From a virus, in the IMG/VR virus record IMGVR_UViG_3300045988_081280: DNA of 43,188 nt. The stretch is one strand, 5' to 3'. Position numbers and translations under genes: made by a program. The notes under the pieces were generated by a model, which made no database searches, had not been told where the DNA came from, and saw only the letters and a program-made list of their open reading frames with translations. Below are positions 1 through 43,188 of this stretch, one piece after another. Every line of letters starts with the position of its first letter. Within the stretch, counting starts at the first letter, position 1.

Positions 1-119
1 ATCCAAAAAGCGACGGTTCGGAAATTTCGGCCTTCGTTGAGCTTTGGAACGACACCTGCCCGGACTTCCCAAGCGTAAAGAAGCTGACCACTAAGCGCAG
101 GGATAAGATCCGCGCCAGG
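1..119. repeat. Terminal overlap, identical to 43070..43188
   Basis: Exact 119-nt match read directly (atccaaaaagcgacgg...gatccgcgccagg). It lies inside an open reading frame. Confidence 0.95.
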
Positions 120-8861: not shown

Positions 8862-9332
8862 ATGAGCTGTATAAAAGCAAAATTCAACGTAAACGAAGTA
8901 ATAGAGAGTTTAGGCCGGCTTTCAGACATTCTGGTCCAGGCTGTTGTCGAAGCTTTCCAGATGGCCTGCCTTGAGATAACGGCGGAGGCCCGCCAGCTTG
9001 ACACATACACCGACCAGACGAACAACCTGCGCAGCTCCATAGGCTTCGGCGTATATTTGGACGGACACCTGGTGGCGGAGAACTACCAAAACAGCGGCAG
9101 CGGATCCGCAGGAACGGGGGACGAAGGACAGCAGAAGGCGAAGGAGGATGTAGAGAGCATCGCCCGGCAGTATTCCGAAGGCATTGTGGGCGTAATAGTA
9201 GCAGGCGAATATTACGCGCTATATGTAGAAAGCAAGGGCTACGACGTACTTACAGGCCCGGCAAACAAGGCGCAGGAAATTCTGGACAAATATATCGGCA
9301 TTGTTGTAGAGGAACTTAAAGCAGCACTATAA
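8862..9332 (+). CDS. Hypothetical head-module protein
   Basis: ORF between the portal and MuF-like genes. Its stop overlaps the next start (TAATG). Confidence 0.55.
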   Translation: MSCIKAKFNVNEVIESLGRLSDILVQAVVEAFQMACLEITAEARQLDTYTDQTNNLRSSIGFGVYLDGHLVAENYQNSGSGSAGTGDEGQQKAKEDVESIARQYSEGIVGVIVAGEYYALYVESKGYDVLTGPANKAQEILDKYIGIVVEELKAAL

Positions 9333-11710
9333 TGGCAAAGAAAACATACACGACGCAATCGGTAGAGACCTACGCGCTATTAAACAGGCTCGAAAGACAG
9401 CTTACCGACCTTTTCGGCAGCACCTACGAAGGCGCGCTGAAGATAGCAGCCGTAAGGAAGGCAATAGTAGCCGGAGAAAGCTTCACTTTCGACGAAAATC
9501 GCCCGGAGACAAAGCAGCTTATTAGAAGCCTAACCGTTATGGCAGGAAAGGCCGACAGGTTGCTGGCCGACAGCGTAAAGCTTGCCTGGCAGGAGGGCGA
9601 AGAAAGCGTTACAAACGCCTGCTATTCGGCATTTGGCAGCATCAAAGGCAGCAAGGAGGCCGTAAGAGCAATAGCGGACCGCAGCCGCGAGGACTTGCGC
9701 AAGCGCGGCGTTTCGGCTTCCGCCTTCTATAACAGGCAGCACGGCGGTCTGACGATAAGCGACCGAGTATGGAACATAGCCCAGAGCGGCAAAAGCGAGA
9801 TAGAGGAAATCATCCAGCAGGGCGTGCTGCAGGGGAAAAGCGCGGCGGAGATAAGCCGCAGCGTCCGGATCTACCTCCGCAACCCTAACAAGCTTTTCAG
9901 GCGGGTACGCAACAAGGAGACCGGCGAACTTGAGCTGTCCAGGAACGCCCGGAACTACCACCCAGGGCGCGGAGTTTACAGGAGCAGCTGCCAGAACGCT
10001 ATGCGCCTGGCCCGGACGGAGGTAAACGCGGCCTATAGGCGGGCGGAATGGGAGAGCTACCAGAACAACCCGCTTATAACCGGCTACCGCATACAGCTAA
10101 GTAACAACCACACCATCAAAATCAAGGGCAAAGCCGTAGCCTTTCACGATATATGCGACGAATTGGCCGGAGATTACCCCAAGACCTTCCAATGGACCGG
10201 CTGGCACCCGCAATGCCGGTGCAGGATGATACCTATTTTTCTTACGGAAGGCGACTTCAGGGCGAGGATCCGCGCGCTTGCAGCCGGAAAGCTTGACACC
10301 TGGAAGGCCGGCAATACCGTAACGCAGCTGCCGGAAGCCTTTACAGGATGGGTAAAGGCCAACACGGACCGCATAAAGAGCGCAAAGCAAGTCCCCTTCT
10401 TTATTCTTGACAACTACAAAGGAGGAGACCCGACAAAGGGCCTCGTGGACACGATTACGAGCCTGAAGCAGCAGGTCAAGGAAAGCGCGAAGGTTCAGCC
10501 GGTAACGGAGTACGACGGGGAGCTGGCAGACCTTGAGAAATGGTCCGCTACTTTCGAGCTTGACACCACACAGGCGCGGATCCTGCGCGAAGCAGGAGAC
10601 AAAGCTGGGCTGAAGAAGGAGATAGAACGCCTCCAGGAATTGAAGGACGACCGCAGTACGGAATGGCTTACAGCGCGTACCAGGTTGCGAATTTTCGCGG
10701 ATAAGCTTAAAGAGTACCCGGAATATACGAAATACGACAACATTCTGCAACAGTACGAAATTAAGCCACAGGGGCCAACGTGGAAGGAAGCAGTCCAGAA
10801 ACTTAAGGATGCAGCCAACCAGGCGCGTGCGGATTTTGATAAGCGGCTGAAGGAAAAAGAAGCGGAGAAGCAGAGAGCACAAGCAGCAGCGGCTGCAGCA
10901 GCGAAGAAAGCAGCAGAGGCCAGCGACAAGCTCCCAGATATAGAGTATAAAACAGCTACCGATGTCGTAAATGGCCTTAACGCAGTAAACGCCGGACTTG
11001 TAGGGAAACGCTGGGCTCAGAATAGTGCCTCCTTTACGTTAGTAGAAACCAGCAGGCGGGGAATAAACGGATCTACGAATATGGAAGGCAAAATTAATCT
11101 AACCCCAGAACGTTTGAAACTTTGTATTTCCGCATTTGAAAAGATACGGACAGGCAAATCAGATACTATAACAAAGCAAGAAGCAGATGCAATGGGTACG
11201 CTTTGGCACGAGATTACGCATAATAGGCACGTAAACCAGGGTGACGAATTTGCTACGACGAAGCTGCAGGATAAATTTATGGAGCTTGCTAATGAGTTCA
11301 CAGCAAGAAAAAGCCTTCCGGAATTTTATAAGGCCCTGGGCGCAAAAGGGAACCCGGTACCAGAGTTTGAGACTAATAGATCGTCCTCAGGCTACAACCA
11401 AATGGTCATAAATTACGACCAGATAATCGACACTTTGAAGCTTAACCGTTCAGAGGTAACAGCCGCGGTCAGAGAGGGCCTATTTTACGGAAATTACGGA
11501 AGCCAAAAAACGGAACTTGCTAAAGCTTTGCTGAAGGGTGGTATTAAGTTAGCAAGCGGTAAGGACCCTTCAATAAAAACCATTGAGGGGCTAATATCAA
11601 GAATAGCTAACGCAAGAGGCGGCTACTACTTCACGGAAAAAGGATATGTTTACATATCCGCTTCCGAGGAAGTAGAAATGATTTTGAAAGAAAAGAAGTT
11701 TATTCGTTAA
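9332..11710 (+). CDS. MuF/SPP1 gp7-like minor head protein with a long C-terminal extension carrying an HExxH motif
   Basis: MuF-like motifs DRVWNIAQ, RTEVNAAYR and WHPQCRCR are present. These are followed by a coiled-coil and poly-Ala linker, then LWHEITHNRH (11207..11221) and ELANEF. Confidence 0.8.
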   Translation: MAKKTYTTQSVETYALLNRLERQLTDLFGSTYEGALKIAAVRKAIVAGESFTFDENRPETKQLIRSLTVMAGKADRLLADSVKLAWQEGEESVTNACYSAFGSIKGSKEAVRAIADRSREDLRKRGVSASAFYNRQHGGLTISDRVWNIAQSGKSEIEEIIQQGVLQGKSAAEISRSVRIYLRNPNKLFRRVRNKETGELELSRNARNYHPGRGVYRSSCQNAMRLARTEVNAAYRRAEWESYQNNPLITGYRIQLSNNHTIKIKGKAVAFHDICDELAGDYPKTFQWTGWHPQCRCRMIPIFLTEGDFRARIRALAAGKLDTWKAGNTVTQLPEAFTGWVKANTDRIKSAKQVPFFILDNYKGGDPTKGLVDTITSLKQQVKESAKVQPVTEYDGELADLEKWSATFELDTTQARILREAGDKAGLKKEIERLQELKDDRSTEWLTARTRLRIFADKLKEYPEYTKYDNILQQYEIKPQGPTWKEAVQKLKDAANQARADFDKRLKEKEAEKQRAQAAAAAAAKKAAEASDKLPDIEYKTATDVVNGLNAVNAGLVGKRWAQNSASFTLVETSRRGINGSTNMEGKINLTPERLKLCISAFEKIRTGKSDTITKQEADAMGTLWHEITHNRHVNQGDEFATTKLQDKFMELANEFTARKSLPEFYKALGAKGNPVPEFETNRSSSGYNQMVINYDQIIDTLKLNRSEVTAAVREGLFYGNYGSQKTELAKALLKGGIKLASGKDPSIKTIEGLISRIANARGGYYFTEKGYVYISASEEVEMILKEKKFIR

Positions 11711-26614: not shown

Positions 26615-27937
26615 ATGGGACTTATTATCGGCGTAGGCAATAACAAGCCTACATTTCCCTATACGCAATACTACGGCGTTGAGAAGGACCTGAGCGTCGC
26701 CGGGACTTCTTGCAAGCGTATAGGTTTGGAGGAATTGCACAGGCAGCTGCCGATCCAGAGCAAAATGCGGCGTTGCTTGCTTCCGGACAACGGCAAAGTA
26801 TCGCAATACCTTCACGCGGCTAACAGCGACCTGACGGACACAGGAATGGCCGCAGACCTTACCGGAGCCAGCGGACAGAGTATGGTGGAAATTCCAGATT
26901 ATTACGCAAAATTCGAGCTTGAAGGCACGATTTTCCGCGCCCTTTTCAGCGAATACCCGCTGCCAGGCTTCCACCTCATCCCCAAACATTACATATCAGC
27001 CTGGGAGGCTACTATGGACCGCACGACGCAGACGCTTGCGAGCGTTGTAAACACTACGGCACAGTACCGAGGCGGAGGAAACAACGCCGCACGAGACGAC
27101 GCGGAGAATACCGACCTGGGCAAACCAGCCACAGCCATCAGCCTGACGAATTTCAGGGCATACGCAGCCAAACGCGGAGAGGGCTGGTCCAATTACTTGT
27201 ATAGCGCGCATAAATCGCTCTATTGGCTTTACGTTTGCGAATACGCAGACTTTAACTGCCAACTTGCATATAATTCGGATCTTGACGCTACCGGCTTCCA
27301 CCAGGGCGGCCTGGGCCCAGGCGTTACGACTTTGGAAAGCAATAAATGGTCGGCTTTCAACGGTTATTACCCGGTTATCCCTTGCGGCGTTACGCGCAGC
27401 CTCGGCAACAGTACGGGCGTAGTTCAGTACAATATGCCGGCAAGCTACGACGCAGCCGGAAAGGTTGTGGAAGTACCGAGCTACAGGGGAGTTGAAAACC
27501 CATTCGGCCACATTTGGAAATGGGTGGACGGCATCCTGTGCAACGTTCAGAGCGAAGCAGCAGGAGGAAAATCCATCGTTTACACTTCGCCGGAGTTTGA
27601 CCCCGATAAATTGGCTTCAGCCATTACCGCAGACTTTACAGCACGCGGAGAATTGCCGCGTACAAGTGGCTACGTAAAGGAGTTCATTCTGGGCGAATAC
27701 GGGGAGATTATGCCGAAAACGTTAGGAGGATCTACCAACACCTATGTAGGCGACTACTTCTATACCAACATACCGGCGGACGGAGAGGCTACGCGCGGGG
27801 TTTTGTTCGGCGGTCATTCGTACCGCGGTGCGGGTGCCGGCTTTGCGTGTGCGGACACGAACAACGCGCCTTCGAATACGGGTGCGAACTTCGGCTCCCG
27901 GCTTTGCTTCACGCCAAAACGCGAAGCCACGAATTAA
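26615..27937 (+). CDS. DGR target protein: putative receptor-binding tail fibre with a C-terminal FGE/C-type-lectin-like variable domain
   Basis: ENPFGHIWKWVDG resembles the GNVWEW motif. The C-terminus RGVLFGGHSYRGAGAGFACADTNNAPSNTGANFGSRLCF is encoded by VR1. Confidence 0.9.
   Translation: MGLIIGVGNNKPTFPYTQYYGVEKDLSVAGTSCKRIGLEELHRQLPIQSKMRRCLLPDNGKVSQYLHAANSDLTDTGMAADLTGASGQSMVEIPDYYAKFELEGTIFRALFSEYPLPGFHLIPKHYISAWEATMDRTTQTLASVVNTTAQYRGGGNNAARDDAENTDLGKPATAISLTNFRAYAAKRGEGWSNYLYSAHKSLYWLYVCEYADFNCQLAYNSDLDATGFHQGGLGPGVTTLESNKWSAFNGYYPVIPCGVTRSLGNSTGVVQYNMPASYDAAGKVVEVPSYRGVENPFGHIWKWVDGILCNVQSEAAGGKSIVYTSPEFDPDKLASAITADFTARGELPRTSGYVKEFILGEYGEIMPKTLGGSTNTYVGDYFYTNIPADGEATRGVLFGGHSYRGAGAGFACADTNNAPSNTGANFGSRLCFTPKREATN
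27795..27913 (+). repeat. DGR variable repeat VR1 (119 nt) including the 3' IMH ggctcccggctttgcttc
   Basis: Aligns without gaps to the TR at 28371..28489. Of 16 differences, 15 fall at TR adenines. Confidence 0.92.
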
Positions 27938-27947
27938 CGAAAACACG

Positions 27948-27987
27948 GCCACCAGGCCGCGCCAGATATTCTGGCCTGGTGGCTTTT
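27948..27987 (+). terminator. GC-rich hairpin plus T-run downstream of VR1 (terminator and/or DGR target-recognition hairpin)
   Basis: gccaccaggcc (27948..27958) pairs with ggcctggtggc (27973..27983), followed by tttt. Confidence 0.65.
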
Positions 27988-28013
27988 GTTCAACTTTTTT
28001 AACAGGATAATAG

Positions 28014-28346
28014 ATGACACAGACGGACGACGGAAGCCTGGCTTTCTTGAAGATTGCACCGGATCCGGAAAACAAACATTTCAACTGCAGCGAGACGACG
28101 CAGCAGAAGCTCGTAAATACTTCTTTCTGGGTTATTGACTACATAGAAAACGTAAAGACGAAATTCGGGGAAAGCCGTTTCCTGATTAAGGTCAAACCGG
28201 AGAAAGACAGCCCGGAGAGCGAGGCACGCAAATTTTTCAGTAATTCGGCAGAAATAAAGTATGTGCTGAAGAAGATAAGGGAGCTTAACGCCTTCCCGCG
28301 CAGGGTAACACTCAGAGCGTCCGGAACGCGCTATTATTTTGAGTAG
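28014..28346 (+). CDS. Candidate DGR accessory protein (positional call; not obviously Avd-like)
   Basis: 110-aa ORF between the target gene and the TR. The sequence (FWVIDYIENVKTKFGESRFLIKVK) looks beta-rich rather than like a four-helix bundle. Confidence 0.55.
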   Translation: MTQTDDGSLAFLKIAPDPENKHFNCSETTQQKLVNTSFWVIDYIENVKTKFGESRFLIKVKPEKDSPESEARKFFSNSAEIKYVLKKIRELNAFPRRVTLRASGTRYYFE

Positions 28347-28370
28347 ATAATAAAAAGGCTGTTCCTTCCT

Positions 28371-28489
28371 GCGGGGTTTTGTTCGGCGGTAATTCGAACA
28401 ACGGTGCGAATGCCGGCTTTGCGTATGCGAACACGAACAACGCGCCTTCGAATACGAATGCGAACATCGGCTCCCGGAATTGTAACACG
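28371..28489 (+). repeat. DGR template repeat (TR, 119 nt)
   Basis: Intergenic and contains 29 adenines. In the VR frame it reads G V L F G G N S N N G A N A G F A Y A N T N N A P S N T N A N I G S R N C N T, which is rich in AAY codons. Confidence 0.92.
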
Positions 28490-28642
28490 TTAAAATAACA
28501 GGCCTACGGACATACAGGAGAGACAGAGGAGAGAGAGTCCGGAAGCCAGGAAGGAAGGCCCTGCCACTCGGCAAAAAATAAAGTTCATAAACAGGGGGAC
28601 CGGTAGGCAATAGGCCGACAGCCACCCAACGTGAAGCAAAGC

Positions 28643-29746
28643 ATGAAGCGATATAATAACCTTTTCGAGAAAATTTGCGACTTTGATAATCTGAAACTTG
28701 CCGCCGCCAACGCAAGCGCAGGCAAGGCGCAGAGGCAAGCCGTAAAGACGTTTTATGCCAACGAAACGGAGAACCTTCAGACTTTGCGCGAAAGCTTGCT
28801 TAACGGCACTTTCAAACCCAGCAAATACAAACAGTATGAGATAGAAGAAAACGCCTCCCGCAAGGCCAGCAAAAAGCGCATAATTTCAGAGCTTCCCTTT
28901 TCCCCGGACCAGATACTGCAGCACGCGGTCAAGCAGGTTTTAGGGCCTATTTTCGAAGCCACATTTACGGCGGACACGTACTGCTGTATTAAAGGCCGGG
29001 GCATACACCTATGCGCCACGAAGATACAGAAGGCCTTGAAGGAGGACCCGGAGGGCACGAAATACTGCTTTAAGGGAGATATCCGGCACTTTTACCAGGA
29101 AATAGACCACGCCATCCTGAAGGACGGAATAAGGACTAAAATAAAGGATAAAAGGACGCTTGACCTTTTGGACCTTCTTATCAGCGCTTCAGACGAGGAC
29201 CCGGTCCTCATCAAGAAGGGAAAGAACGGGAGGATGCTGAAGGCAGAGAAAACGCCGGGCAAATCCATACCGATAGGCAATTTTACGTCCCCATTCTACG
29301 CAAATATTTACCTAAACAAGCTGGACCATTTTATAAAGGAGGTCCTGAAGGTAAAGTATTACTACAGATACGCGGACGATATAACAATTTTTGCAAGTTC
29401 AAAGGAAGAATTACACCGCATACAAAAGGCTATCTACGAATTTCTTGCAGGCTTGAAGCTTCAGCTTAAAAGTAATTGGCAGATTTTCCCGGTAGAGGCA
29501 CGCGGGGTGGACTTCCTGGGCTACGTATTTTTTCACGGTTACACCCTTTTACGCGAGAGCATAAAGCGCAACTTCTGCCGCCGTATTGCAAAGCTTAACA
29601 AGCGTGTGGGGCTTACGGAAGCGGAATTTAAGAGGGAGACCGGCTCATGGTGGGGATGGGCGAAATATTGCGATAGCCGCCATTTAATACAAACCATTAA
29701 CAAAAGATCCAAGTATGAAATCAAATTCAAACGAAAGGCCGCCTAA
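28643..29746 (+). CDS. DGR reverse transcriptase
   Basis: Contains YRYADDITIF (YADD catalytic box) and the IPIGNFTSPFYANIYL motif. N-terminus MKRYNNLFEKI. It begins about 150 nt downstream of the TR. The ORF track starts it at the GTG at 28631. Confidence 0.92.
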   Translation: MKRYNNLFEKICDFDNLKLAAANASAGKAQRQAVKTFYANETENLQTLRESLLNGTFKPSKYKQYEIEENASRKASKKRIISELPFSPDQILQHAVKQVLGPIFEATFTADTYCCIKGRGIHLCATKIQKALKEDPEGTKYCFKGDIRHFYQEIDHAILKDGIRTKIKDKRTLDLLDLLISASDEDPVLIKKGKNGRMLKAEKTPGKSIPIGNFTSPFYANIYLNKLDHFIKEVLKVKYYYRYADDITIFASSKEELHRIQKAIYEFLAGLKLQLKSNWQIFPVEARGVDFLGYVFFHGYTLLRESIKRNFCRRIAKLNKRVGLTEAEFKRETGSWWGWAKYCDSRHLIQTINKRSKYEIKFKRKAA

Positions 29747-30077
29747 GGTTCAGCCATTGGGTGGTGGCCGCTATTACTACAACTTCCACGTAGAGGAAGT
29801 AGAGAGGACGGAGCAGGGCCCGGACGGAGTACAGGAGTCCCGCCGGTGCTTCGACTACGAAAGCGTACTTATTGCCGGAACGCCGACTTACCGCAAGGTC
29901 GTAGAAGCCAGGATCCGCGACAGGTACACAGCTACGCAAGAGTTTGACCTGATTAACAGCTACAACGCAGCCGTCATCGCAGGGGACGACGCAAGCCCGG
30001 AAATTGAGAATTACAAAGCTTACCTTTCCGAGCTTCAGACCATCAAGGCGGAAGTAGCCCAGGACTTCGAAAAGTAG
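29715..30077 (+). CDS. Hypothetical protein
   Basis: 120-aa ORF overlapping the 3' end of the RT gene by 32 nt. Confidence 0.5.
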   Translation: MKSNSNERPPKVQPLGGGRYYYNFHVEEVERTEQGPDGVQESRRCFDYESVLIAGTPTYRKVVEARIRDRYTATQEFDLINSYNAAVIAGDDASPEIENYKAYLSELQTIKAEVAQDFEK

Positions 30078-36973: not shown

Positions 36974-39070
36974 ATGAAGAAAGTAGTAAAACTCATTTCC
37001 TTACACCTTGAGAACTTCAAAGGGGCAAAGGACACGCTGGTGAACTTCGGGGAAGTTACCAGAATTTCGGGAGCCAACGGCACCGGCAAAAGCACCATTT
37101 TCGACGCCTTCACGTGGGTGCTCTTTGGCAAGAACGCGGAGGATCGCACGGACAGCGGAAAGGGCGGCTTCCAGCTCAAGACCGTAGATGGCAGCGGCGA
37201 GAGTTTGCACAACCTTGAGCACAGAGTAACGGCGGTGCTTGAGGTAAACGGCCAGCGCTTCGAGTTTTCGAAGCTTCTGAAGGAGCAATGGGTGAAGAAG
37301 CGCGGCACGGCGGAAATAGTATTTTCCGGGCACGCTACGCAGTATTTCATCGACGGCCTGGAAGTAAAGGCCAGCCGCTACGAGGAGCAGATCAGCGGGA
37401 TAATAAACGCCCAGCTTTTCAAGCTCATTACAAACCCTACCTATTTCCCGGCTTTGGATTGGAAGAAGCAGCGCGACATCCTCACGACGATAGCCGGAAG
37501 CGTAACGCTTGAGATGGTGGCAGCGGGTAACGCGGATTTTGAAGCCATCCTCCGGGAGCTTTCCGGAAAGAGCTTGCAGGAGTTCAGGGAGGCGAAGGCC
37601 TACGACAAGAAAACGGCGAAGCAGGAGCTGGACGACATCCCGGTGAGGATTGCCAGCATAGAGGACGCGACACCGGCACCGCACGAAGGCAACGCCGCAG
37701 AGCTTGAGGCACAGAAGGTGGCAGCCCAGGCGCAGCTGCCGGAGCTTGACGCGCAGCTGACAGACATAGCGGAGGCGACGCGCCAGAGATACGCCAAAGC
37801 GCGCGACCTTGAACAGCAGATCGGAGAACTTCAGCTGCAGCGCGAGCACATTATAAACGACGCGAGACAGCAGGAACAGGCGCGGTGCTTCGAGGCCAAC
37901 GCCCGACGCAGGGAGATGGAGGCGGAAATAAAGAGGCTAAGCGCGGAGATTGCCGGAAATATGGACAGAGCCACCAGGGAGCAGCAGGACGCAGTCAGCC
38001 GCCGCTCGGCCATTGAGCATCAGGTCGCACAGCTTGAGGAAAGAGTCAAGGACTTGCGGGCACAGTTTTACAGGAAGAAGGGCGAGACCTACACCAGCAA
38101 GGAAAACGAAGCCTTTGTCTGCCCGGTATTCGGCCACCTTTGCGGGGACGCAGCGGCCATAAGGACCAGGGAGGACCAGGCACAGAGGGCAGAAGAAGTA
38201 TGGTACCAGAAACAGCGCGAAGCTATTATGGCCATTCAGGAGGAGGGAAAGCAGCTGAACGAAGAAATAGCCCGGAAACAGCAGGAAATAGCCCAACTTC
38301 AGGAGGAGGCCGACTCAGCCTATTGGAAAGGCGTAAACGCGGGCCGCGAAACGCAGCAGCGCATCAACGAACTGAAAGCCCAGCTTGAGGGACAGAAGGA
38401 GGAAACGCCGAAGGCGATAGTAGGGACGGACATCAAGGAATGGCGCGAGCTTTCCAACAAGATAGACCACCTTACTATGGACCTTAACTCCTTCCGGAGC
38501 GATGCGGAGAACCCAGACGGCAACGGCCAGACGGAGGAGAGCCGCAAGGCGCAGATCTTCGAGCGCAAGGCAGCCATAAACGCCGAAATAGCGGCCATAA
38601 GCAAGACCCTCGGAGAGATAGAGGCAACGGAGAGGGTAAGGGCGAAGAACGCCGCCCAGATAGCGCAGCTGCGCGCAAGGGAGAGGGAGCTGGCCCAGAG
38701 GATTGCGGAGATAGAGAAGCGCGAAATGTTGGCGGACAGCTTGCAGCACGCCCAGATGGACGAAATAGAACGCAGGGTAAACGGGATGTTCAAAATGGTA
38801 CGCTTCAGGATGTACGAAAAGCAGATTAACGGCGGCGAAACCGACACCTGCCTGGCTATGATTAACGGCGTACCTTTCGCGGACGCCAACAAGGCCGGAA
38901 AGATAAACGGAGGGCTTGACATCATAAACACCCTCTGCCGCTTCCACGGCATTACGGCGCCTATCTTCATAGACAACGCCGAAAGCGTTAACGATTTTAT
39001 CCCTACCGAAAGCCAGATTATAAAGCTTGAAGTAACCAGGGAACCACAGCTAACAATTACCGAAGAATAA
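36974..39070 (+). CDS. SMC/SbcC/Rad50-like AAA ATPase
   Basis: The N-terminus LENFKGAKD...ISGANGTGKSTIFDAF carries a Walker A motif. A long central coiled coil follows, and IFIDNAESV near the C-terminus is Walker B-like. Confidence 0.85.
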   Translation: MKKVVKLISLHLENFKGAKDTLVNFGEVTRISGANGTGKSTIFDAFTWVLFGKNAEDRTDSGKGGFQLKTVDGSGESLHNLEHRVTAVLEVNGQRFEFSKLLKEQWVKKRGTAEIVFSGHATQYFIDGLEVKASRYEEQISGIINAQLFKLITNPTYFPALDWKKQRDILTTIAGSVTLEMVAAGNADFEAILRELSGKSLQEFREAKAYDKKTAKQELDDIPVRIASIEDATPAPHEGNAAELEAQKVAAQAQLPELDAQLTDIAEATRQRYAKARDLEQQIGELQLQREHIINDARQQEQARCFEANARRREMEAEIKRLSAEIAGNMDRATREQQDAVSRRSAIEHQVAQLEERVKDLRAQFYRKKGETYTSKENEAFVCPVFGHLCGDAAAIRTREDQAQRAEEVWYQKQREAIMAIQEEGKQLNEEIARKQQEIAQLQEEADSAYWKGVNAGRETQQRINELKAQLEGQKEETPKAIVGTDIKEWRELSNKIDHLTMDLNSFRSDAENPDGNGQTEESRKAQIFERKAAINAEIAAISKTLGEIEATERVRAKNAAQIAQLRARERELAQRIAEIEKREMLADSLQHAQMDEIERRVNGMFKMVRFRMYEKQINGGETDTCLAMINGVPFADANKAGKINGGLDIINTLCRFHGITAPIFIDNAESVNDFIPTESQIIKLEVTREPQLTITEE

Positions 39071-39117: not shown

Positions 39118-39837
39118 ATGAATGACAAAAAAGACATTAGGGACAGAGTTAAGACCTACGAGGACGCCTGCATGGTGTTAGGGATTGACACAAAAACGCC
39201 GGAGCTTCCGAACATTCCGGAGAGGGACCGCAGGGGCGTAACAGCCTACTACAAGCTTATCATCATCGCCCGCGCATTGAACGAAGGATGGGCGCCGGAT
39301 TGGAAGAACGAAAGAGAGGGAAAAGCGGTGCCGTACTTCTATTTCGACAGGGAGAACAACACTATTGCCGGCTTTGCGTTTGCGTCCACGTACGGCGCGC
39401 CTTCGATTACGTCTGCGAGCTTCGGCTCCCGGCTTTGCTTCAAAACGGAAGCGCTTGCGGAATACGCGGCCACGCAGTTTGAGGAATTGTGGCGGGATTA
39501 CATTCTGTACCCCAACGACGTAACGGATCCGGAGGAAGAAGAACCATCGGTCGCCGACTTCCTTCTGTTCAGCGAGAACAGCAGGCGGGAGCTTGAGCGC
39601 AAATGCCGCAAGTTCGACGACGCCTGCTATATGACCCTTGCCTGCGCAAAAGGAGAGGACGGAGCCGAAGCGGCTGCAGGATTTGGCGGCAACCCGAAGA
39701 TGATGGGGCGGCTTCTTGCGGAGATATTCAGCCAGCAGGATTTGAGGGAAGTATTTATGGCGATGCTTCACTATATGGACGTTAAGAAGGAGGCAGCCAG
39801 GATGGGCAAGACTACCGTAGAAATTCGCCACGACTAA
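39118..39837 (+). CDS. Second DGR target candidate: small non-structural protein with an internal variable repeat
   Basis: Residues 84-108 (AGFAFASTYGAPSITSASFGSRLCF) are encoded by VR2. VPYFYFD parallels GDYFYTN of the VR1 protein. About 130 further residues follow the VR. Confidence 0.8.
   Translation: MNDKKDIRDRVKTYEDACMVLGIDTKTPELPNIPERDRRGVTAYYKLIIIARALNEGWAPDWKNEREGKAVPYFYFDRENNTIAGFAFASTYGAPSITSASFGSRLCFKTEALAEYAATQFEELWRDYILYPNDVTDPEEEEPSVADFLLFSENSRRELERKCRKFDDACYMTLACAKGEDGAEAAAGFGGNPKMMGRLLAEIFSQQDLREVFMAMLHYMDVKKEAARMGKTTVEIRHD
39366..39441 (+). repeat. DGR variable repeat VR2 (76 nt), matching the 3' part of the TR (28411..28486)
   Basis: The 11 differences before cggctcccgg all fall at TR adenines. 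The 3' end ggctcccggctttgcttc is identical to the VR1 IMH. The reading frame is the same as in VR1. Confidence 0.85.
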
Positions 39838-39906: not shown

Positions 39907-40749
39907 ATGGAAAAAGCAACAACAAAGCTCCCGGCAGCGGAGCCACAGAGCGCCGAAAAGGGCGTAACCGTTTATCAGGTAGCAGGGCAGGAAGTAAAAC
40001 TTTCCTACGCCATTGTCAGAAATTTCCTTACCAGGGGCAACGGCAAGGTCTCAGACGCGGAGATCGTACAATTTATTAGCCTTTGCCGCTTTAACCAGCT
40101 TAACCCGTTCCTGGGCGAGGCGTACCTGGTCAAATACAGCGACAGCACCCCGGCGCAGCTTGTATCAAGCAAGGAGAGCTTTATGAAGCGCGCGGAGAGC
40201 AGCAACCACTATCAGGGCTACAGGGCCGGAGTCATTGTCCTGAGGGACAACCAGGCTATAGAGCTTGAAGGGGCCTTCCTTTTGCCTACGGATAAGCTGG
40301 TCGGAGGTTGGGCAGAAGTTTACAGGGATGATCGCAAGTTTCCGATAGTAGCCCGCGTAAGCTTCGCGGAGTACAACAAGGGACAGAGCACCTGGAACGA
40401 AAAGCCGGCAACGATGATCCGCAAAGTAGCGGAGGCGCAGGCCTTCCGCGAGGCGTTCCCGGTTCAGTTGGGCGCGATGTACACGCCGGAGGAAGGGACG
40501 GAGTCCGACGACCAGGGCGCAGGCCTTCTGGCAGCTGCAGCAGTAGAAGAACAGATGGCGGAGAACGGGAACAGGCAGGCGCTGACCTTCGGAGCCCCGG
40601 CAGCCCAGGAGGCGCAGCCGACACAGGCAGGAACACAGGAGGCGCAGCAGGAAGCGGCACCGGCACCGAGACCGGCGACACAGCCCGCAAGGCCTATGGC
40701 TTCGAGGGAGGCCGGCGCTAATATGAACTTCACGGAACCGGGATTTTAA
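39907..40749 (+). CDS. recT: RecT-family single-strand annealing recombinase
   Basis: FISLCRFNQLNPFLGEAYLVKY...WNEKPATMIRKVAEAQAFREAFP fits the RecT family. The C-terminal tail is Ala/Gln-rich. Confidence 0.85.
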   Translation: MEKATTKLPAAEPQSAEKGVTVYQVAGQEVKLSYAIVRNFLTRGNGKVSDAEIVQFISLCRFNQLNPFLGEAYLVKYSDSTPAQLVSSKESFMKRAESSNHYQGYRAGVIVLRDNQAIELEGAFLLPTDKLVGGWAEVYRDDRKFPIVARVSFAEYNKGQSTWNEKPATMIRKVAEAQAFREAFPVQLGAMYTPEEGTESDDQGAGLLAAAAVEEQMAENGNRQALTFGAPAAQEAQPTQAGTQEAQQEAAPAPRPATQPARPMASREAGANMNFTEPGF

Positions 40750-40758
40750 CAGGAGGCT

Positions 40759-41520
40759 ATGAAGCTTACGGTCATAGGAAGCAGCAGCGCCGGAAACGGC
40801 TACATCCTTGACGCGGGGGACGAAGCCCTGGTCCTTGAGGCCGGGGTCCCCTTCGCCAGAGTAAAGGAGGCGCTGAACTTCAATATAACCAAAATAGCGG
40901 CGTGCCTTATAACGCACGAGCACAAGGACCACAGCGGCCACATAGAGGAAGCGATGGCCAGCGCAGTCCCCTGCTATTGCAGCGCGGGCACGGCGGACGC
41001 AATACGCTACAAGGGGAGGCGCAGACCGGGCATCCTGAAGGCGGCCACTATCTACCGCTTCGGCGGCTTCCTTGTGCAGCCTTTCGAGGCGGTACACGAC
41101 GCAGCGGAGCCCTTCGGCTACTACATACACCATCCCCAGATGGGAAGCGAGGGGCAAAGCCTTCTTTTCGCCACGGATACGGCCTATCTAAAGCACCGCT
41201 TCAGCGGATTGCAGACGGTGCTCATAGAAGCGAATTACAGCCTTGAGTATTTGCAGGAGGGAACCCAGACGGGACGCATACCGAAGCAGGTGCGGGACAG
41301 GATCATAAAGAGCCACATGAGCATCGACCACGCGGTCGAGACATTGAAGAAAAACGACTTAAGCGCCTTGCATACCGTTGTCCTGATACATTTGTCAGCG
41401 GACAACAGCAACGCGGACGAGTTCCGGCAGAGGATGGAGACAGCGCTGCACATTCCGACGGCGGAGGTATTGGTGGCAAGGCCGGGGCTTGAAGTACAGA
41501 TTAACGATTTACCATTTTAA
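40759..41520 (+). CDS. Metallo-beta-lactamase-fold hydrolase (probable nuclease partner of RecT)
   Basis: Contains the HEHKDHSG (HxHxDH) motif and directly follows recT. Confidence 0.8.
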   Translation: MKLTVIGSSSAGNGYILDAGDEALVLEAGVPFARVKEALNFNITKIAACLITHEHKDHSGHIEEAMASAVPCYCSAGTADAIRYKGRRRPGILKAATIYRFGGFLVQPFEAVHDAAEPFGYYIHHPQMGSEGQSLLFATDTAYLKHRFSGLQTVLIEANYSLEYLQEGTQTGRIPKQVRDRIIKSHMSIDHAVETLKKNDLSALHTVVLIHLSADNSNADEFRQRMETALHIPTAEVLVARPGLEVQINDLPF

Positions 41521-42462: not shown

Positions 42463-43188
42463 ATGGCTTTAAGAGATAACCCATATATAATGCTTGACGT
42501 AGATAGCTTTATGAACGACGAAAAGCTGCGGTGTTGTTCCCCGGCTTCCGTTGGGATATATATCCGCTTGCTTTGCGTTTTGCATAAAAGCGACACCTAC
42601 GGAGCAATTTTGTACCAACAAAAGGACTTACAAAAAGCAAAAATTTGTGGGTACAAAAACCCTAACAAAATTCAAATTTTTGTTGCGATGCTTTCGCGCC
42701 AACTTCCGGAAACAAGGGAAGAAATAGAAGCAGCCTTAACGGAACTTTTTGAAGAAGGCGTAATACAAATTTACGACAATAGGCTGGAGCAAAAAAGGAT
42801 GGTCCGGGACGCGGAAATCAGCGAAAAACGCCAACAGGCGCGCTCTCAGAGGCGTAAAGCTCACGAAAGCCAGGCCGCAGAGACACAGGAAGAAACTGAA
42901 TTTTGTACCTACAAAACAGCTAACAAAAATCAAAATTTTGTACCTACAAAATTTGAAAATTTGTTGGATACGTGCGCGCACGCGAATACCTTCTCCTCCT
43001 CTTTAGAAAAAGAAAATATAAAAGAAAAAGAGGATGAAAGTAAAGGAAAGAGGGTGCAGGGGGAAAACCATCCAAAAAGCGACGGTTCGGAAATTTCGGC
43101 CTTCGTTGAGCTTTGGAACGACACCTGCCCGGACTTCCCAAGCGTAAAGAAGCTGACCACTAAGCGCAGGGATAAGATCCGCGCCAGG
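42463..43188 (+). CDS. Replication initiator-like protein, N-terminal part (DUF1376/YdaU-like; runs off the window and continues at nt 3..368)
   Basis: ATG at 42463, hand-translated with no stop to the window end. It is absent from the ORF track because it is open-ended. N-terminus YIMLDVDSFMNDEKLRCCSPASVGIYIRLLCVLHKS. Confidence 0.7.
   Translation, partial: MALRDNPYIMLDVDSFMNDEKLRCCSPASVGIYIRLLCVLHKSDTYGAILYQQKDLQKAKICGYKNPNKIQIFVAMLSRQLPETREEIEAALTELFEEGVIQIYDNRLEQKRMVRDAEISEKRQQARSQRRKAHESQAAETQEETEFCTYKTANKNQNFVPTKFENLLDTCAHANTFSSSLEKENIKEKEDESKGKRVQGENHPKSDGSEISAFVELWNDTCPDFPSVKKLTTKRRDKIRAR
42608..42951. repeat. Iteron-like repeats TTTTGTACCNACAAAA inside the initiator gene (candidate origin of replication)
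   Basis: Exact 16-mers at 42901..42916 and 42936..42951. Variants are at 42608..42623 and, inverted, 42644..42658. Each unit is a near-palindrome TTTTGTA-NN-TACAAAA. Confidence 0.6.
43070..43188. repeat. Terminal overlap, identical to 1..119
   Basis: Exact 119-nt match with the window start. Confidence 0.95.

What the first reader, a model, noticed from the sequence alone, without database searches (positions are those of the whole stretch)
26615..29746. Complete diversity-generating retroelement at the end of the tail module
Seen directly: a 119-nt VR (27795..27913) at the 3' end of the 440-aa gene aligns without gaps to an intergenic 119-nt TR (28371..28489). There are 16 differences, and 15 of them fall at TR adenines. 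All 11 differences upstream of the shared cggctcccgg element are A-to-N. The single non-A change lies in the last 12 nt, where the VR reads ctttgcttc and the TR reads aattgtaac; this is the expected IMH versus IMH* asymmetry.

In the VR frame the TR is rich in AAY (Asn) codons. A YADD reverse transcriptase begins about 150 nt downstream of the TR. An 11-bp GC hairpin (27948..27983) follows the VR. The TR-RT spacer contains a purine-rich tract (about 28514..28560).

Established knowledge: this is the signature of a DGR (BPP-1 Mtd paradigm) that diversifies a C-type-lectin/FGE-fold receptor-binding protein.
Basis: partly seen in the sequence, partly recalled or inferred. Interest (0 to 1): 0.8.

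Follow-up and report, generated by a model that had tools for sequence, protein, structure and literature searches.

The report
Two-target phage diversity-generating retroelement
A temperate gut-type phage carries a working diversity-generating retroelement that rewrites its tail receptor-binding protein and also a second protein 11 kb away among the early genes; the kind of system is well known, but this one has a small OB-fold-like helper where the usual Avd protein sits.

Summary
VR1 (27795-27913) and the TR (28371-28489) align without gaps: 16 differences, 15 at TR adenines. The RT is closest to the Bordetella phage DGR RT among solved structures. In six 99%-identical sister genomes VR1 varies at 23.6% of columns against 0-2.8% elsewhere, almost only at TR-adenine positions. 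The two TR polymorphisms are mirrored in VR1 of the same genomes.

(1) A second target, VR2 (39366-39442), lies in a 239-aa early-region protein between an SbcC-like ATPase and RecT. It has an identical IMH and is just as hypervariable in populations. (2) The 110-aa gene between VR1 and TR is not Avd. It is a highly conserved, basic, OB-like protein, and it is fused to the RT C-terminus in Hankyphage-type DGRs. (3) A spacer segment abutting the RT start codon is complementary to the IMH and covaries with it.

The GC hairpin after VR1 behaves like a terminator. Avd-less DGRs, two-target phage DGRs with a non-structural target, and primer-IMH pairing are all published. Only the 110-aa accessory module appears undescribed. 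Verdict: new member of a known kind, moderate interest.

The parts
26615..27937 (+). Target gene 1: 440-aa tail (receptor-binding type) protein, last gene of the tail module
   Evidence: ORF. phrog_5302 'tail protein', E 2.5e-122. It follows the tape measure, Dit-like and Prophage_tail genes. It is 37% identical (E 1e-90) to the DGR-targeted tail protein of Bacteroides phage Versailles.
27795..27913 (+). VR1, variable repeat at the 3' end of target 1
   Evidence: 119 nt ungapped against the TR, 15 of 16 differences at TR adenines. Hypervariable at residues 401-426 in 16 cluster members. 23.6% variable columns in six 99%-identical genomes, 22 of 25 at TR-A positions.
27893..27913 (+). IMH of VR1: shared GC-rich GGCTCCCGG followed by the VR-specific CTTTGCTTCACG
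   Evidence: The 19-mer GGCTCCCGGCTTTGCTTCA occurs exactly twice in the window, at the ends of VR1 and VR2, with 0.01 expected. The TR copy differs at 5 positions, including one non-A.
27947..27984 (+). 12-bp GC hairpin followed by a T-run: probable intrinsic terminator of the tail operon
   Evidence: Fold z = -2.5. Relatives have a GC stem plus T-run of different sequence about 50-66 nt from the VR, or none. VR2 has no counterpart.
28014..28346 (+). 110-aa basic OB-like protein: candidate DGR accessory subunit in the position Avd holds in BPP-1
   Evidence: phrog_19665, no Pfam family. pI 9.2. Same position in 20 related viral loci, 7 genomic loci and two independent look-ups. More conserved than the RT. 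Model pLDDT 89.8 with b1-b2-b3-a-b4-b5 topology. hhalign probability 0.15% against Avd and 96.2% against the C-terminus of the Hankyphage RT.
28371..28489 (+). TR, template repeat (intergenic, invariant); IMH* is 28469-28489
   Evidence: Only 2 variable columns among six sister genomes, and both are mirrored in VR1 of the same genomes. It serves both VR1 and VR2.
28490..28642 (+). TR-RT spacer of the DGR RNA: purine-rich insertion 28514-28560, hairpin P1 28562-28565/28570-28573, A-run 28573-28582, stem P2 28595-28600/28621-28626
   Evidence: 0 of 153 variable columns in sister genomes. Conserved order in 21 loci. P1 and P2: 95.8% paired against 82.2% in shuffles (0 of 500), covariation 0.434 against 0.191 (0 of 500), slid registers 27-60%. 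Coordinates. No Rfam family.
28630..28642 (+). Primer-like 'anti-IMH' segment CGTGAAGCAAAGC, abutting the RT start codon
   Evidence: 13-nt perfect complement of VR1 27901-27913, and 11 nt with VR2. It changes together with the IMH in L011, L013-L019, L032 and L010. It pairs better with the IMH than with IMH* in 20 of 21 loci. In phage BIP-1 the equivalent segment is spacer 48-56, ending at the priming A56 (Naorem 2017, PMC5703328).
28643..29746 (+). DGR reverse transcriptase (367 aa from the ATG; alternative GTG at 28631)
   Evidence: RVT_1, E 2.8e-21. Best solved relative is chain 8ub7 at 133 bits. phrog_1423. IGNFTSP motif 4 and a YADD box. 70 of 81 viral sources (the window and 80 loci) and 31 of 39 genomic relatives carry adenine-biased repeat pairs.
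39118..39837 (+). Target gene 2: 239-aa acidic protein of the early/recombination module (phrog_11581, unknown function)
   Evidence: ORF. It lies between the SbcC-like ATPase 36974-39070 and RecT 39907-40749. Homologues keep an early, DNA-metabolism context in L127, L129 (after Mu Gam), Versailles and BI-TP1. The N-terminal domain is modelled confidently but has no PDB fold match.
39366..39442 (+). VR2, second variable repeat (IMH 39424-39442), in the same reading frame as VR1 and the TR
   Evidence: 11 of 11 differences from TR 28411-28476 at adenines, P = 4e-9. IMH identical to that of VR1. 12 of 12 DNA differences from sister locus L081 fall at TR-A positions. Entropy 1.96 bits at TR-A codons against 0.08 elsewhere in 15 cluster members.

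Best explanation
This is an active, Avd-less diversity-generating retroelement of a 43-kb temperate siphovirus-type phage, probably of Bacteroidales. It has one template and two targets.

Proposed mechanism:
1. An RNA covering the TR and the 153-nt structured spacer is bound by the RT, probably together with the 110-aa OB-like protein.
2. The 3' end of the spacer (28630-28642, next to the RT start codon) acts as the primer region.
3. cDNA synthesis starts at the end of the shared GGCTCCCGG and runs 5' through the TR, with random nucleotides inserted opposite adenines.
4. The RNA-linked cDNA docks on a target because the primer segment pairs with the VR-specific IMH, which VR1 and VR2 share and the TR lacks. 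The cDNA then replaces the VR.
5. This rewrites about 12-14 codons in the tail receptor-binding protein (host-range variation) and about 8-10 codons in a cytoplasmic-looking early protein whose ligand is unknown.

Shown here: the repeats, the adenine bias, RT kinship, variation confined to TR-A codons at both targets, TR-to-VR copying, spacer structure covariation, IMH/primer covariation, and the fusion of the 110-aa module to RTs.

Inferred: the priming site, the role of the 110-aa protein, and the function of target 2.
For: - Repeat statistics.
- The RT is closest to chain 8ub7, which I take to be the BPP-1 DGR RT. Its relatives are DGR-bearing phages. Adenine-biased TR/VR pairs sit next to the RT in 70 of 81 viral sources and 31 of 39 genomic loci.
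- Population evidence: entropy 2.26 and 1.96 bits at TR-A codons against 0.07 and 0.08 elsewhere. Six sister genomes show VR1 23.6% variable against 0-2.8% elsewhere, and two TR polymorphisms (28432, 28447) are copied into VR1 (27856, 27871) in the same genomes. VR2 against L081: 12 of 12 differences at TR-A positions.
- The IMH is identical at both VRs and occurs only there.
- Primer/IMH complementarity covaries and exceeds primer/IMH* pairing in 20 of 21 loci. The same relation holds in BIP-1 at spacer 48-56 and was proposed for BPP-1 by Naorem et al. 2017 (PMC5703328).
- Spacer helices covary.
- 110-aa protein: synteny, fusion to RTs, OB-like model.
- The same two-target design occurs in the cultured phages Versailles and BI-TP1 and, by cross-genome comparison, in L127 against the L002 TR.
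Against: - No reads were mapped, so activity is inferred from differences between assembled genomes, not seen within one population.
- RT motif 4 reads IGNFTSP, not the usual DGR IGxxxSQ.
- No Avd is present.
- The 110-aa protein is absent from some close relatives that still show adenine-biased VRs (L008, L010, L088, L089), so it cannot be universally required.
- Its fold match to OB proteins is not statistically significant (best E 0.18).
- The C-type lectin fold was not demonstrated for either target.
- The priming site is an analogy with BPP-1, not a measurement.
Confidence: 0.92

Rival explanations
1. The 110-aa gene is a passenger of the tail/lysis region, for example a tail-fibre helper, and has no role in retrohoming. 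On this view the DGR is a plain accessory-free target-TR-RT cassette.
For: Close relatives L008, L010, L088 and L089, and the crAss-like loci, have adenine-biased VRs without it. Wu et al. 2018 (PMC5758913) caution that ORFs nested between DGR parts are often unrelated. Nearly a third of their DGRs have no accessory gene at all.
Against: - It was found only next to DGR RTs, always between the VR and the TR, including when the search started from the protein itself.
- It is more conserved than the RT or the target (77% against 61% and 66-70%; 1 of 333 variable columns).
- The same module is fused in frame to the RT C-terminus in Hankyphage, in L099 and L101-L103, and in six RVT_1-containing representatives.
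- Target-1 homologues without an adjacent DGR lack it.
Confidence: 0.25
2. Target 2 is a virion-associated binding protein, like the tentaclins or a decoration protein, that happens to be encoded outside the structural module. Both targets would then serve adsorption.
For: Second targets with the VR away from the C-terminus are known and are thought to be virion-attached (tentaclins, PMC10743442). The Versailles homologue is annotated 'tail protein'. The VR segment is homologous to that of target 1.
Against: - In five phage groups the gene lies among early, recombination, replication or DNA-modification genes.
- Only the 33-residue VR segment resembles the tail protein, which explains the 'tail protein' label.
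- It has no Ig-like or anchoring domain, no signal peptide, and no structural-protein match in PHROGs.
- Benler et al. 2021 reached the same non-structural reading for the Quimbyvirus homologue.
Confidence: 0.2
3. The GC hairpin 27947-27984 is the DGR target-recognition stem-loop, as downstream of the BPP-1 VR, and not merely a terminator.
For: BPP-1 needs a GC stem-loop 3' of the IMH for efficient homing (Guo 2011, PMC3240598, from the abstract only; cited in PMC5703328). A GC stem is present after target 1 in the window, L001, L013 and L084.
Against: It lies 34 nt from the VR here and about 50-66 nt in relatives, and is always followed by a T-run. Its sequence is not conserved. It is absent in L006 and L011. 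VR2 has no such hairpin (z = -0.2) but is diversified to the same degree.
Confidence: 0.2
4. The element is a decayed or inactive DGR, and the VR/TR differences are old, or the adenine bias is a chance feature of a duplicated segment.
For: RT motif 4 has SP in place of SQ. No Avd is present.
Against: P is about 1e-8 to 1e-10 for the adenine bias at each of the two VRs. Genomes 99% identical elsewhere carry different VR1 sequences, and TR polymorphisms are copied into VR1. All ORFs are intact. The spacer is invariant.
Confidence: 0.03

Closest known systems
Bordetella phage BPP-1/BIP-1 DGR (mtd-avd-TR-brt)
   Same: Gene order is target, small basic protein, TR, about 150-nt spacer, RT. Both show adenine-specific VR/TR differences, a GC-rich element plus IMH/IMH*, and a spacer segment complementary to the IMH at the priming site. 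The VR segment of target 1 aligns with the Mtd VR.
   Different: RT identity is only about 31%. The small basic protein is not Avd (hhalign 0.15%) but an OB-like beta protein. The primer segment sits at the very 3' end of the spacer on the RT start codon, not at spacer position 56. There are two targets. The downstream hairpin is not adjacent to the IMH.
Avd-less 'lineage 3' DGRs with CLec3-class VRs, e.g. crAssphage LMMB (Wu et al. 2018, PMC5758913; PMC7290462)
   Same: RT about 40% identical. No avd. Target-TR-RT order. The VR ends in the ...GSRLC... motif reported for CLec3 VRs. The target is a tail protein, and target 1 has 24-40% identical homologues in crAss-like loci.
   Different: An extra, strongly conserved 110-aa gene lies between the VR and the TR. 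There is a second remote target. IMH and IMH* differ here, whereas they were reported identical in LMMB. Lineage assignment here rests on similarity, not on a phylogeny.
'Quimbyviridae' (LoVEphage/BI-TP1) two-target DGR (Benler et al. 2021, PMC8008677)
   Same: One TR serves a tail-module target and a distant non-structural target. Target 2 of the window is homologous (about 31%) to the distant target in BI-TP1/LoVEphage records. I confirmed that the BI-TP1 TR matches its gp84 with 14 of 14 differences at A.
   Different: Different phage family (43 kb against about 71 kb). The RT here is a single ORF, not three frames. Target 2 is on the same strand as the RT. It sits in an SbcC-like/RecT recombination module rather than a methylase-rich island, and it carries a 110-aa C-terminal extension.
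Hankyphage (Bacteroides phage p00) DGR (Benler 2018, PMC6199706; PMC12135933)
   Same: Temperate Bacteroides-group phage with a tail-fibre target. Its RT carries the same 110-aa module.
   Different: In Hankyphage the module is the C-terminal domain of the RT, not a separate gene upstream of the TR. RT identity is about 29%. No primer/IMH match was found by my test. It is a Mu-like transposable phage. No second target was examined.
Tentaclin-type two-target phage DGRs (PMC10743442)
   Same: Two targets, one of them with the VR away from the C-terminus of the protein.
   Different: Tentaclins have Ig-like domains and a conserved anchoring domain, are encoded beside the cassette, and are presumed to be virion proteins. 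Target 2 has none of these features and is encoded 11 kb away among early genes.

Membership tests
Diversity-generating retroelement (DGR) | A template repeat and a variable repeat that differ almost only at template adenines | tested here: met
   VR1: 15 of 16 differences at A, and 11 of 11 before the IMH. VR2: 11 of 11. P = 9e-9 and 4e-9.
Diversity-generating retroelement (DGR) | A reverse transcriptase of the DGR clade next to the TR | tested here: met
   Best solved relative is 8ub7 (133 bits, against 77 for group II and about 55 for chains labelled retron-type). All phage homologues are from DGR-bearing phages. Relatives carry A-biased repeats. No formal phylogeny was built.
Diversity-generating retroelement (DGR) | RT motif 4 signature [LIV]GxxxSQ | tested here: not met
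   The window reads IGNFTSP. SQ occurs in 71 of 78 related RTs, SP in the window and L001-L004, SA in L011. The I and G are kept, and adenine mutagenesis is evidently retained. I therefore treat this as a variant of a typical feature, not of a defining one.
Diversity-generating retroelement (DGR) | VR inside a protein-coding gene, TR non-coding, template adenines at codon positions 1 and 2 | tested here: met
   VR1 and VR2 are in ORFs and share one frame. The TR is intergenic. Adenines: 13 at position 1, 11 at position 2, 0 at position 3.
Diversity-generating retroelement (DGR) | IMH at the VR 3' end that differs from IMH* in the TR (directionality) | tested here: met
   An identical 19-mer sits at both VRs and nowhere else. 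The TR differs at 5 positions, including a non-A.
Diversity-generating retroelement (DGR) | Ongoing diversification: variation confined to TR-A positions, with the TR invariant | tested here: met
   from assembled sister genomes and cluster members. Read-level data were not available.
BPP-1-type DGR (architecture B: avd-TR-RT) | Avd accessory protein (PF05635-type helical bundle) | tested here: not met
   No Avd Pfam hit in the 110-aa protein, in the other two small ORFs next to the cassette, or in 18 other small ORFs. hhalign against BIP-1 Avd gives 0.15%. The model is a beta-barrel-like fold.
BPP-1-type DGR (architecture B: avd-TR-RT) | GC stem-loop immediately 3' of the IMH | tested here: inconclusive
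   A 12-bp GC hairpin lies 34 nt after VR1 but behaves like a terminator, and VR2 has none. A 5-bp stem GCTTC/GAAGC involving the IMH is present at both VRs but was not tested further.
C-type lectin / FGE-fold DGR variable proteins | VR residues displayed on a C-type lectin fold | tested here: inconclusive
   Target 1 has no Pfam or PDB sequence match and was not modelled. Its VR segment aligns with the Mtd VR (E 9e-4, probability 23%). The target-2 model (N-terminal domain pLDDT about 85-97, VR about 62) has no PDB fold match (best E about 2). Published HHpred calls for the Quimbyvirus homologues say C-type lectin (PMC8008677).
Group II intron or retron RT (rival family) | Score above the family cut-off, or intron or msr/msd RNA context | tested here: not met
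   Group II RT model scores 136 bits against a cut-off of 300, and the retron models score far below their cut-offs. No Rfam intron or retron RNA is found in the window.
OB-fold nucleic-acid-binding proteins (for the 110-aa protein) | Five-stranded barrel with a helix between strands 3 and 4, and a significant structural match | tested here: inconclusive
   The topology b1-b2-b3-a-b4-b5 is modelled at pLDDT 89.8. The top Foldseek hits are nearly all OB folds (hSSB1, PRD1 SSB, TEBP, Teb1, AB5 B subunits), but the best E is 0.18 and TM-scores are 0.3-0.4.

The most novel reading that the evidence does not exclude
The 110-aa OB-like basic protein (28014-28346) is a previously unrecognised class of DGR accessory subunit. 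On this reading it takes the place of Avd in a large Avd-less lineage of Bacteroidota phage DGRs. It is a separate gene in the Avd position here and the C-terminal domain of the RT in Hankyphage-type elements, and it holds the TR-spacer RNA or the nascent cDNA during priming and target docking.
Probability: 0.45. Interest if true: 0.6.

Novelty: new member of a known kind. Interest (0 to 1): 0.45.

Why it matters
DGRs are the only known natural machines for targeted protein hypermutation in prokaryotes, and they are being developed as in vivo evolution tools. How elements without Avd work, and how the cDNA finds its target, are open questions.

This locus and its relatives offer three testable handles:
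1. A conserved small protein that is either adjacent to the RT or fused to it. It is a concrete candidate for the missing cofactor of Avd-less DGRs.
2. Natural covariation between the IMH and a spacer segment next to the RT start codon. This gives comparative support to the primer-IMH docking model proposed for BPP-1 and predicts the priming site in a distant lineage.
3. A second, non-structural target family that recurs in at least five phage groups. Two of these are cultured Bacteroides phages (Versailles, BI-TP1), where its ligand could be sought.

For phage biology, it extends the published idea that gut phages hypermutate intracellular proteins as well as tail fibres.

Tried and rejected
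- **Near-identical DNA in GenBank phages:** none found.
- **Rfam:** no family anywhere in the window.
- **Sequence searches of solved structures:** nothing for target 1, target 2 or the 110-aa protein, whether as single sequences or profiles.
- **Fold search of the target-2 model against the PDB:** nothing significant. Against viral predicted structures it matched only uncharacterised gut-phage proteins.
- **PADLOC:** no hit for target 2 or the 110-aa protein.
- **Primer/IMH complementarity as a new principle:** I first thought it might be one. I rejected that after finding it stated for BPP-1 by Naorem et al. 2017.
- **Remote non-structural target as a novelty:** rejected after finding Benler et al. 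2021.
- **Anti-Pycsar identity for the neighbouring MBL hydrolase:** too weak in the window (19.8 bits against a cut-off of 50), so I did not use it as evidence that target 2 is an anti-defence gene.
- **The 120-aa ORF after the RT as a DGR part:** rejected, because it follows target-1 homologues in crAss-like loci that have no DGR between them.
- **Supplementary sequences of Wu et al. 2018:** not held, so I could not check whether the 110-aa gene equals one of their tentative 'PAG' genes.
- **My repeat finder on BIP-1:** it missed the pair, which I then aligned by hand.
- **Target 1 structure:** not modelled.

Full report
**1. The observation**

VR 27795-27913 and TR 28371-28489 align without gaps over 119 nt. 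There are 16 differences, 15 at TR adenines and one T-to-C at TR 28483. All 11 differences upstream of the shared GGCTCCCGG are A-to-N. The chance that 11 differences all fall on the 24 adenines among 106 positions is 9e-9. In the reading frame of the 440-aa gene the TR reads GVLFGGNSNNGANAGFAYANTNNAPSNTNANIGSRNCNT. Every adenine of the mutagenised part is at codon position 1 or 2 (13 and 11, none at position 3).

The other stated features are also present: the RT with its YADD box, the GC hairpin (12-bp stem, 27947-27958 with 27973-27984) and the purine-rich tract (81% purine).

**2. The RT is a DGR RT**

Pfam finds RVT_1. All NCBIfam RT models score below their cut-offs, with group II intron highest at 136 bits against a cut-off of 300. 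That library appears to hold no DGR model. Among solved structures the best match by far is chain 8ub7 at 133 bits. The depositors call it only 'Reverse transcriptase', but its 328-aa sequence is the Bordetella phage enzyme I also read from locus L082. The best group II intron RT scores 77 bits and chains labelled retron-type score about 55.

All phage homologues come from DGR-bearing lineages: crAss-like phages at about 40-44%, Bordetella BIP-1, Vibrio VHML, Hankyphage and the Faecalibacterium phages. A simple repeat finder of my own found adenine-biased TR/VR pairs beside the RT in 70 of 81 viral sources (the window plus 80 fetched loci) and in 31 of 39 genomic relatives.

One atypical point concerns motif 4. 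It reads IGNFTSP here and in L001-L004, whereas 71 of 78 related RTs have the usual IGxxxSQ.

**3. The element is active**

No reads were available, so I used natural sister genomes.

- Sixteen members of the 90%-identity cluster of target 1 carry 4-9 different residues at positions 401, 403, 404, 407, 412, 414, 416, 417, 421, 423, 425 and 426. These are the TR codons with an adenine at position 1 or 2. Most other variable columns show only two alleles. Mean column entropy is 2.26 bits at TR-A codons and 0.07 elsewhere.
- At the DNA level, six genomes are 98.8-99% identical across the cassette. VR1 is variable at 23.6% of its columns. The figures elsewhere are 1.6% for the rest of the gene, 0.3% for the 110-aa gene, 1.7% for the TR, 0% for the spacer and 2.8% for the RT.
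- Of the 25 variable VR1 columns, 22 are TR-A positions. Two of the other three (27856, 27871) reproduce, genome by genome, the only two polymorphisms of the TR (28432, 28447). That is the footprint of TR-to-VR copying.

**4. A second target**

The same TR (28411-28476) matches 39366-39431 with 11 differences, all at adenines (P = 4e-9). The match continues into a 19-nt IMH, GGCTCCCGGCTTTGCTTCA. This is identical to the one at VR1 and occurs nowhere else in the window, even with three mismatches allowed. The two VRs therefore share the VR-type 3' end, while the TR reads GGCTCCCGGAATTGTAACA.

VR2 lies in frame inside a 239-aa ORF (39118-39837). It encodes residues about 84-108, not the C-terminus.

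- Close homologues (81-87% by local alignment) differ almost only at the TR-A codons.
- Against sister locus L081, all 12 DNA differences within the VR are at TR-A positions.
- Fifteen cluster members give 1.96 bits at TR-A codons against 0.08 elsewhere.

Both targets are therefore diversified in nature.

**5. What target 2 is**

It belongs to phrog_11581, a family of unknown function. It has no Pfam, PADLOC or PDB sequence match. It is acidic and has no signal peptide.

The family core is about 130 aa: two helices, NEGWxPDW, PWF, the variable segment ending in GSRLCFK, and a conserved C-terminal helix. The window protein adds about 110 C-terminal residues. Only the 33-residue VR segment is related to target 1 (hhalign 96%). 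The model is confident for the N-terminal domain, but it has no significant PDB fold match and matches only uncharacterised gut-phage proteins in the viral structure library.

Its genomic context is consistently early:
- between an SbcC-like ATPase and RecT here and in L081 and L127;
- directly after Mu Gam in a Mu-like prophage;
- between recombination genes and the replisome organizer in the cultured Bacteroides phage Versailles;
- among methyltransferases, a Holliday-junction resolvase and an HNH nuclease in BI-TP1.

In Versailles and BI-TP1 the phage's own TR matches this gene (15 of 16 and 14 of 14 differences at A) as well as the tail protein. In other relatives, two or three small genes of this family form a tandem array right next to the TR.

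This design is already published. Benler et al. 2021 (PMC8008677) reported that Quimbyviridae DGRs target one structural protein and one protein in a defence-related island, and suggested a role in phage-host conflict. The window adds a member from a different phage family and shows that the target family is widespread.

**6. The gene in the Avd position**

The 110-aa ORF (28014-28346) has no Pfam family. hhalign gives 0.15% probability against BIP-1 Avd. No Avd was found among the other small ORFs of the genome.

Evidence that it belongs to the cassette:
- It is basic (pI 9.2) and very conserved: 65-80% identity over hundreds of clusters, and more conserved than the RT or the target in the same loci.
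- It lies between the VR and the TR in 20 of the related viral loci, in 7 genomic loci, and in loci reached independently from a Leadbetterella byssophila genome and from an abundant gut variant.
- Its model is confident (pLDDT 89.8) with the strand order b1-b2-b3-helix-b4-b5. The top of the Foldseek list is almost entirely OB-fold proteins, but no hit is significant.
- The same module is fused in frame to the C-terminus of the RT in Hankyphage (hhalign 96.2%, E 2e-9), in Bacteroides and Parabacteroides loci L099 and L101-L103, and in six RVT_1-containing representatives of an exhaustive profile search.

I read this as a candidate accessory subunit of Avd-less DGRs. The caveat is that some relatives (L008, L010, L088, L089, and the crAss-like loci) have neither this module nor Avd. 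I found no description of the module in the papers I could search. I could not compare it with the tentative 'PAG' genes of Wu et al. 2018.

**7. The RNA side**

The 153-nt spacer is invariant among sister genomes and has a conserved layout in 21 loci whose RTs are 44-61% identical to the window's. The order is: IMH*, a variable linker, hairpin P1 (UGCC/GGCA), an A-run, stem P2, the motif AGCAAAG(C), and the RT start codon. The purine-rich tract is an insertion found only in the window and L001-L003.

P1 and P2 are supported by covariation: 95.8% of cells are paired against 82.2% in shuffles, the covariation score is 0.434 against 0.191 (0 of 500 shuffles reach either value), and slid registers give 27-60%.

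The last 13 nt of the spacer (28630-28642) are the perfect complement of the VR-specific IMH of VR1, and 11 nt match VR2. In lineages with a different IMH the complement changes with it: L011 has GTGTAAAGCAGA, and L013-L019 have AGACCAGCAA. This segment pairs better with the IMH than with IMH* in 20 of 21 loci and never worse.

In BIP-1 the equivalent match is spacer 48-56, which ends on the priming adenosine A56. Naorem et al. 2017 (PMC5703328) had already pointed out that the RNA primer pairs more extensively with the IMH than with IMH*, and proposed that this sets directionality. So the principle is known. What this clade adds is comparative support and a predicted priming site at 28642/28643, on the RT start codon.

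**8. The hairpin**

The GC hairpin after VR1 starts 34 nt from the VR and is followed by TTTTGTTCAACTTTTTT. Relatives have GC stems of unrelated sequence, each followed by a T-run, about 50-66 nt from the VR, and some have none. VR2 has no such hairpin but is equally diversified. I therefore read it as the terminator of the tail operon. A 5-bp stem GCTTC...GAAGC that includes the end of the IMH is present at both VRs. I did not test it further.

**9. Context**

The first 119 nt of the window repeat at its end, so it is a circular assembly of 43,069 bp. The gene order is:
- methyltransferase/ParB-like, TerL, portal, head morphogenesis, major head protein;
- tape measure, Dit-like, and a large Prophage_tail protein;
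- a 95-aa ORF, target 1, the 110-aa gene, TR, RT and a 120-aa ORF;
- holin, DUF5675, integrase (minus strand), then the early genes including target 2.

The nearest cellular relatives of the RT are Bacteroidales, Prevotellaceae, Dysgonomonadaceae and Tannerellaceae MAGs at no more than 51% identity. A sister prophage abuts a host GH3 gene. The host is probably a member of Bacteroidales, but I did not establish this.

**10. Classification**

The RT is about 40% identical to that of crAssphage LMMB. That RT was placed in the Avd-less lineage 3 of Wu et al., whose CLec3 VRs carry an SRLC motif (PMC7290462). Both VRs here end in GSRLCF. Target 1 is homologous to the DGR-targeted tail proteins of Versailles (37%, E 1e-90) and BI-TP1 (E 9e-20).

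[quoted passage not shown] **11. Verdict**

This is a genuine, active DGR, and a new member of a known kind. Three of its notable features already have precedents: Avd-less DGRs, a distant non-structural second target, and primer-IMH pairing. The 110-aa OB-like module, separate here and fused to the RT elsewhere, is the one feature I could not find described, and it gives the locus moderate interest.

Noticed in passing
window 1-119 and 43070-43188: The first 119 nt are repeated at the end of the window. This is a circular-assembly overlap, so the contig is a complete circular phage genome of 43,069 bp.
   Followed up: partly
protein P0034 (138 aa, 11.4-kb ENA contig); relates to window 39118-39440 and 27900-28010: This ORF joins the N-terminus of the target-2 protein, at the VR, to an out-of-frame reading of the DNA downstream of VR1. 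It is either an assembly chimera through the VR1/VR2 repeat or a real recombination between the two VRs.
   Followed up: no
window 29263-29283 (RT motif 4): The RT reads IGNFTSP where most DGR RTs of the clade (71 of 78) read IGxxxSQ. The SP variant is shared with L001-L004, and L011 has SA. Adenine mutagenesis is evidently retained.
   Followed up: partly
window 29715-30077: A 120-aa ORF (phrog_11557) overlaps the RT 3' end by 32 nt. In crAss-like loci its homologue directly follows a 39%-identical target-1 homologue with no DGR in between. The block of 110-aa gene, TR and RT therefore looks like an insertion between two tail-module genes.
   Followed up: partly
window 27905-27926 and 39436-39451: A 5-bp stem GCTTC...GAAGC, whose 5' arm is the end of the IMH, is present just after both VRs. 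The stem sequence is the same and the loops differ. The TR has no equivalent.
   Followed up: no
L024, L026-L030, L074, L095, L116 (Chryseobacterium sp.): In these relatives the DGR's local targets are two or three tandem small genes (about 125 aa) of the target-2 family, each with its own VR, directly upstream of the TR.
   Followed up: partly
L126 5001-5907: This related locus has two tandem genes of the 110-aa size (114 aa each) between the target and the RT.
   Followed up: no
window 9332-11710: The 792-aa head-morphogenesis/minor-head protein has a strong match to a Bxa ADP-ribosyltransferase family (phrog_16625, E 7.6e-56). This suggests an ejected effector domain.
   Followed up: no
window 40759-41520: An MBL-fold hydrolase two genes downstream of target 2 has only weak similarity to the anti-Pycsar protein Apyc1 in the window (19.8 bits, cut-off 50). 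Its homologues in L127 and L128 are listed with an unmarked Apyc1 hit.
   Followed up: partly
L096-L098, L021, L078, L095 (RT ORFs): These RT reading frames run 70-130 aa beyond the RT domain, but the extension does not match the 110-aa profile. It may be a more diverged version or a different C-terminal module.
   Followed up: no
It is found only in the window and L001-L003, and the rest of the clade lacks it.
   Followed up: partly
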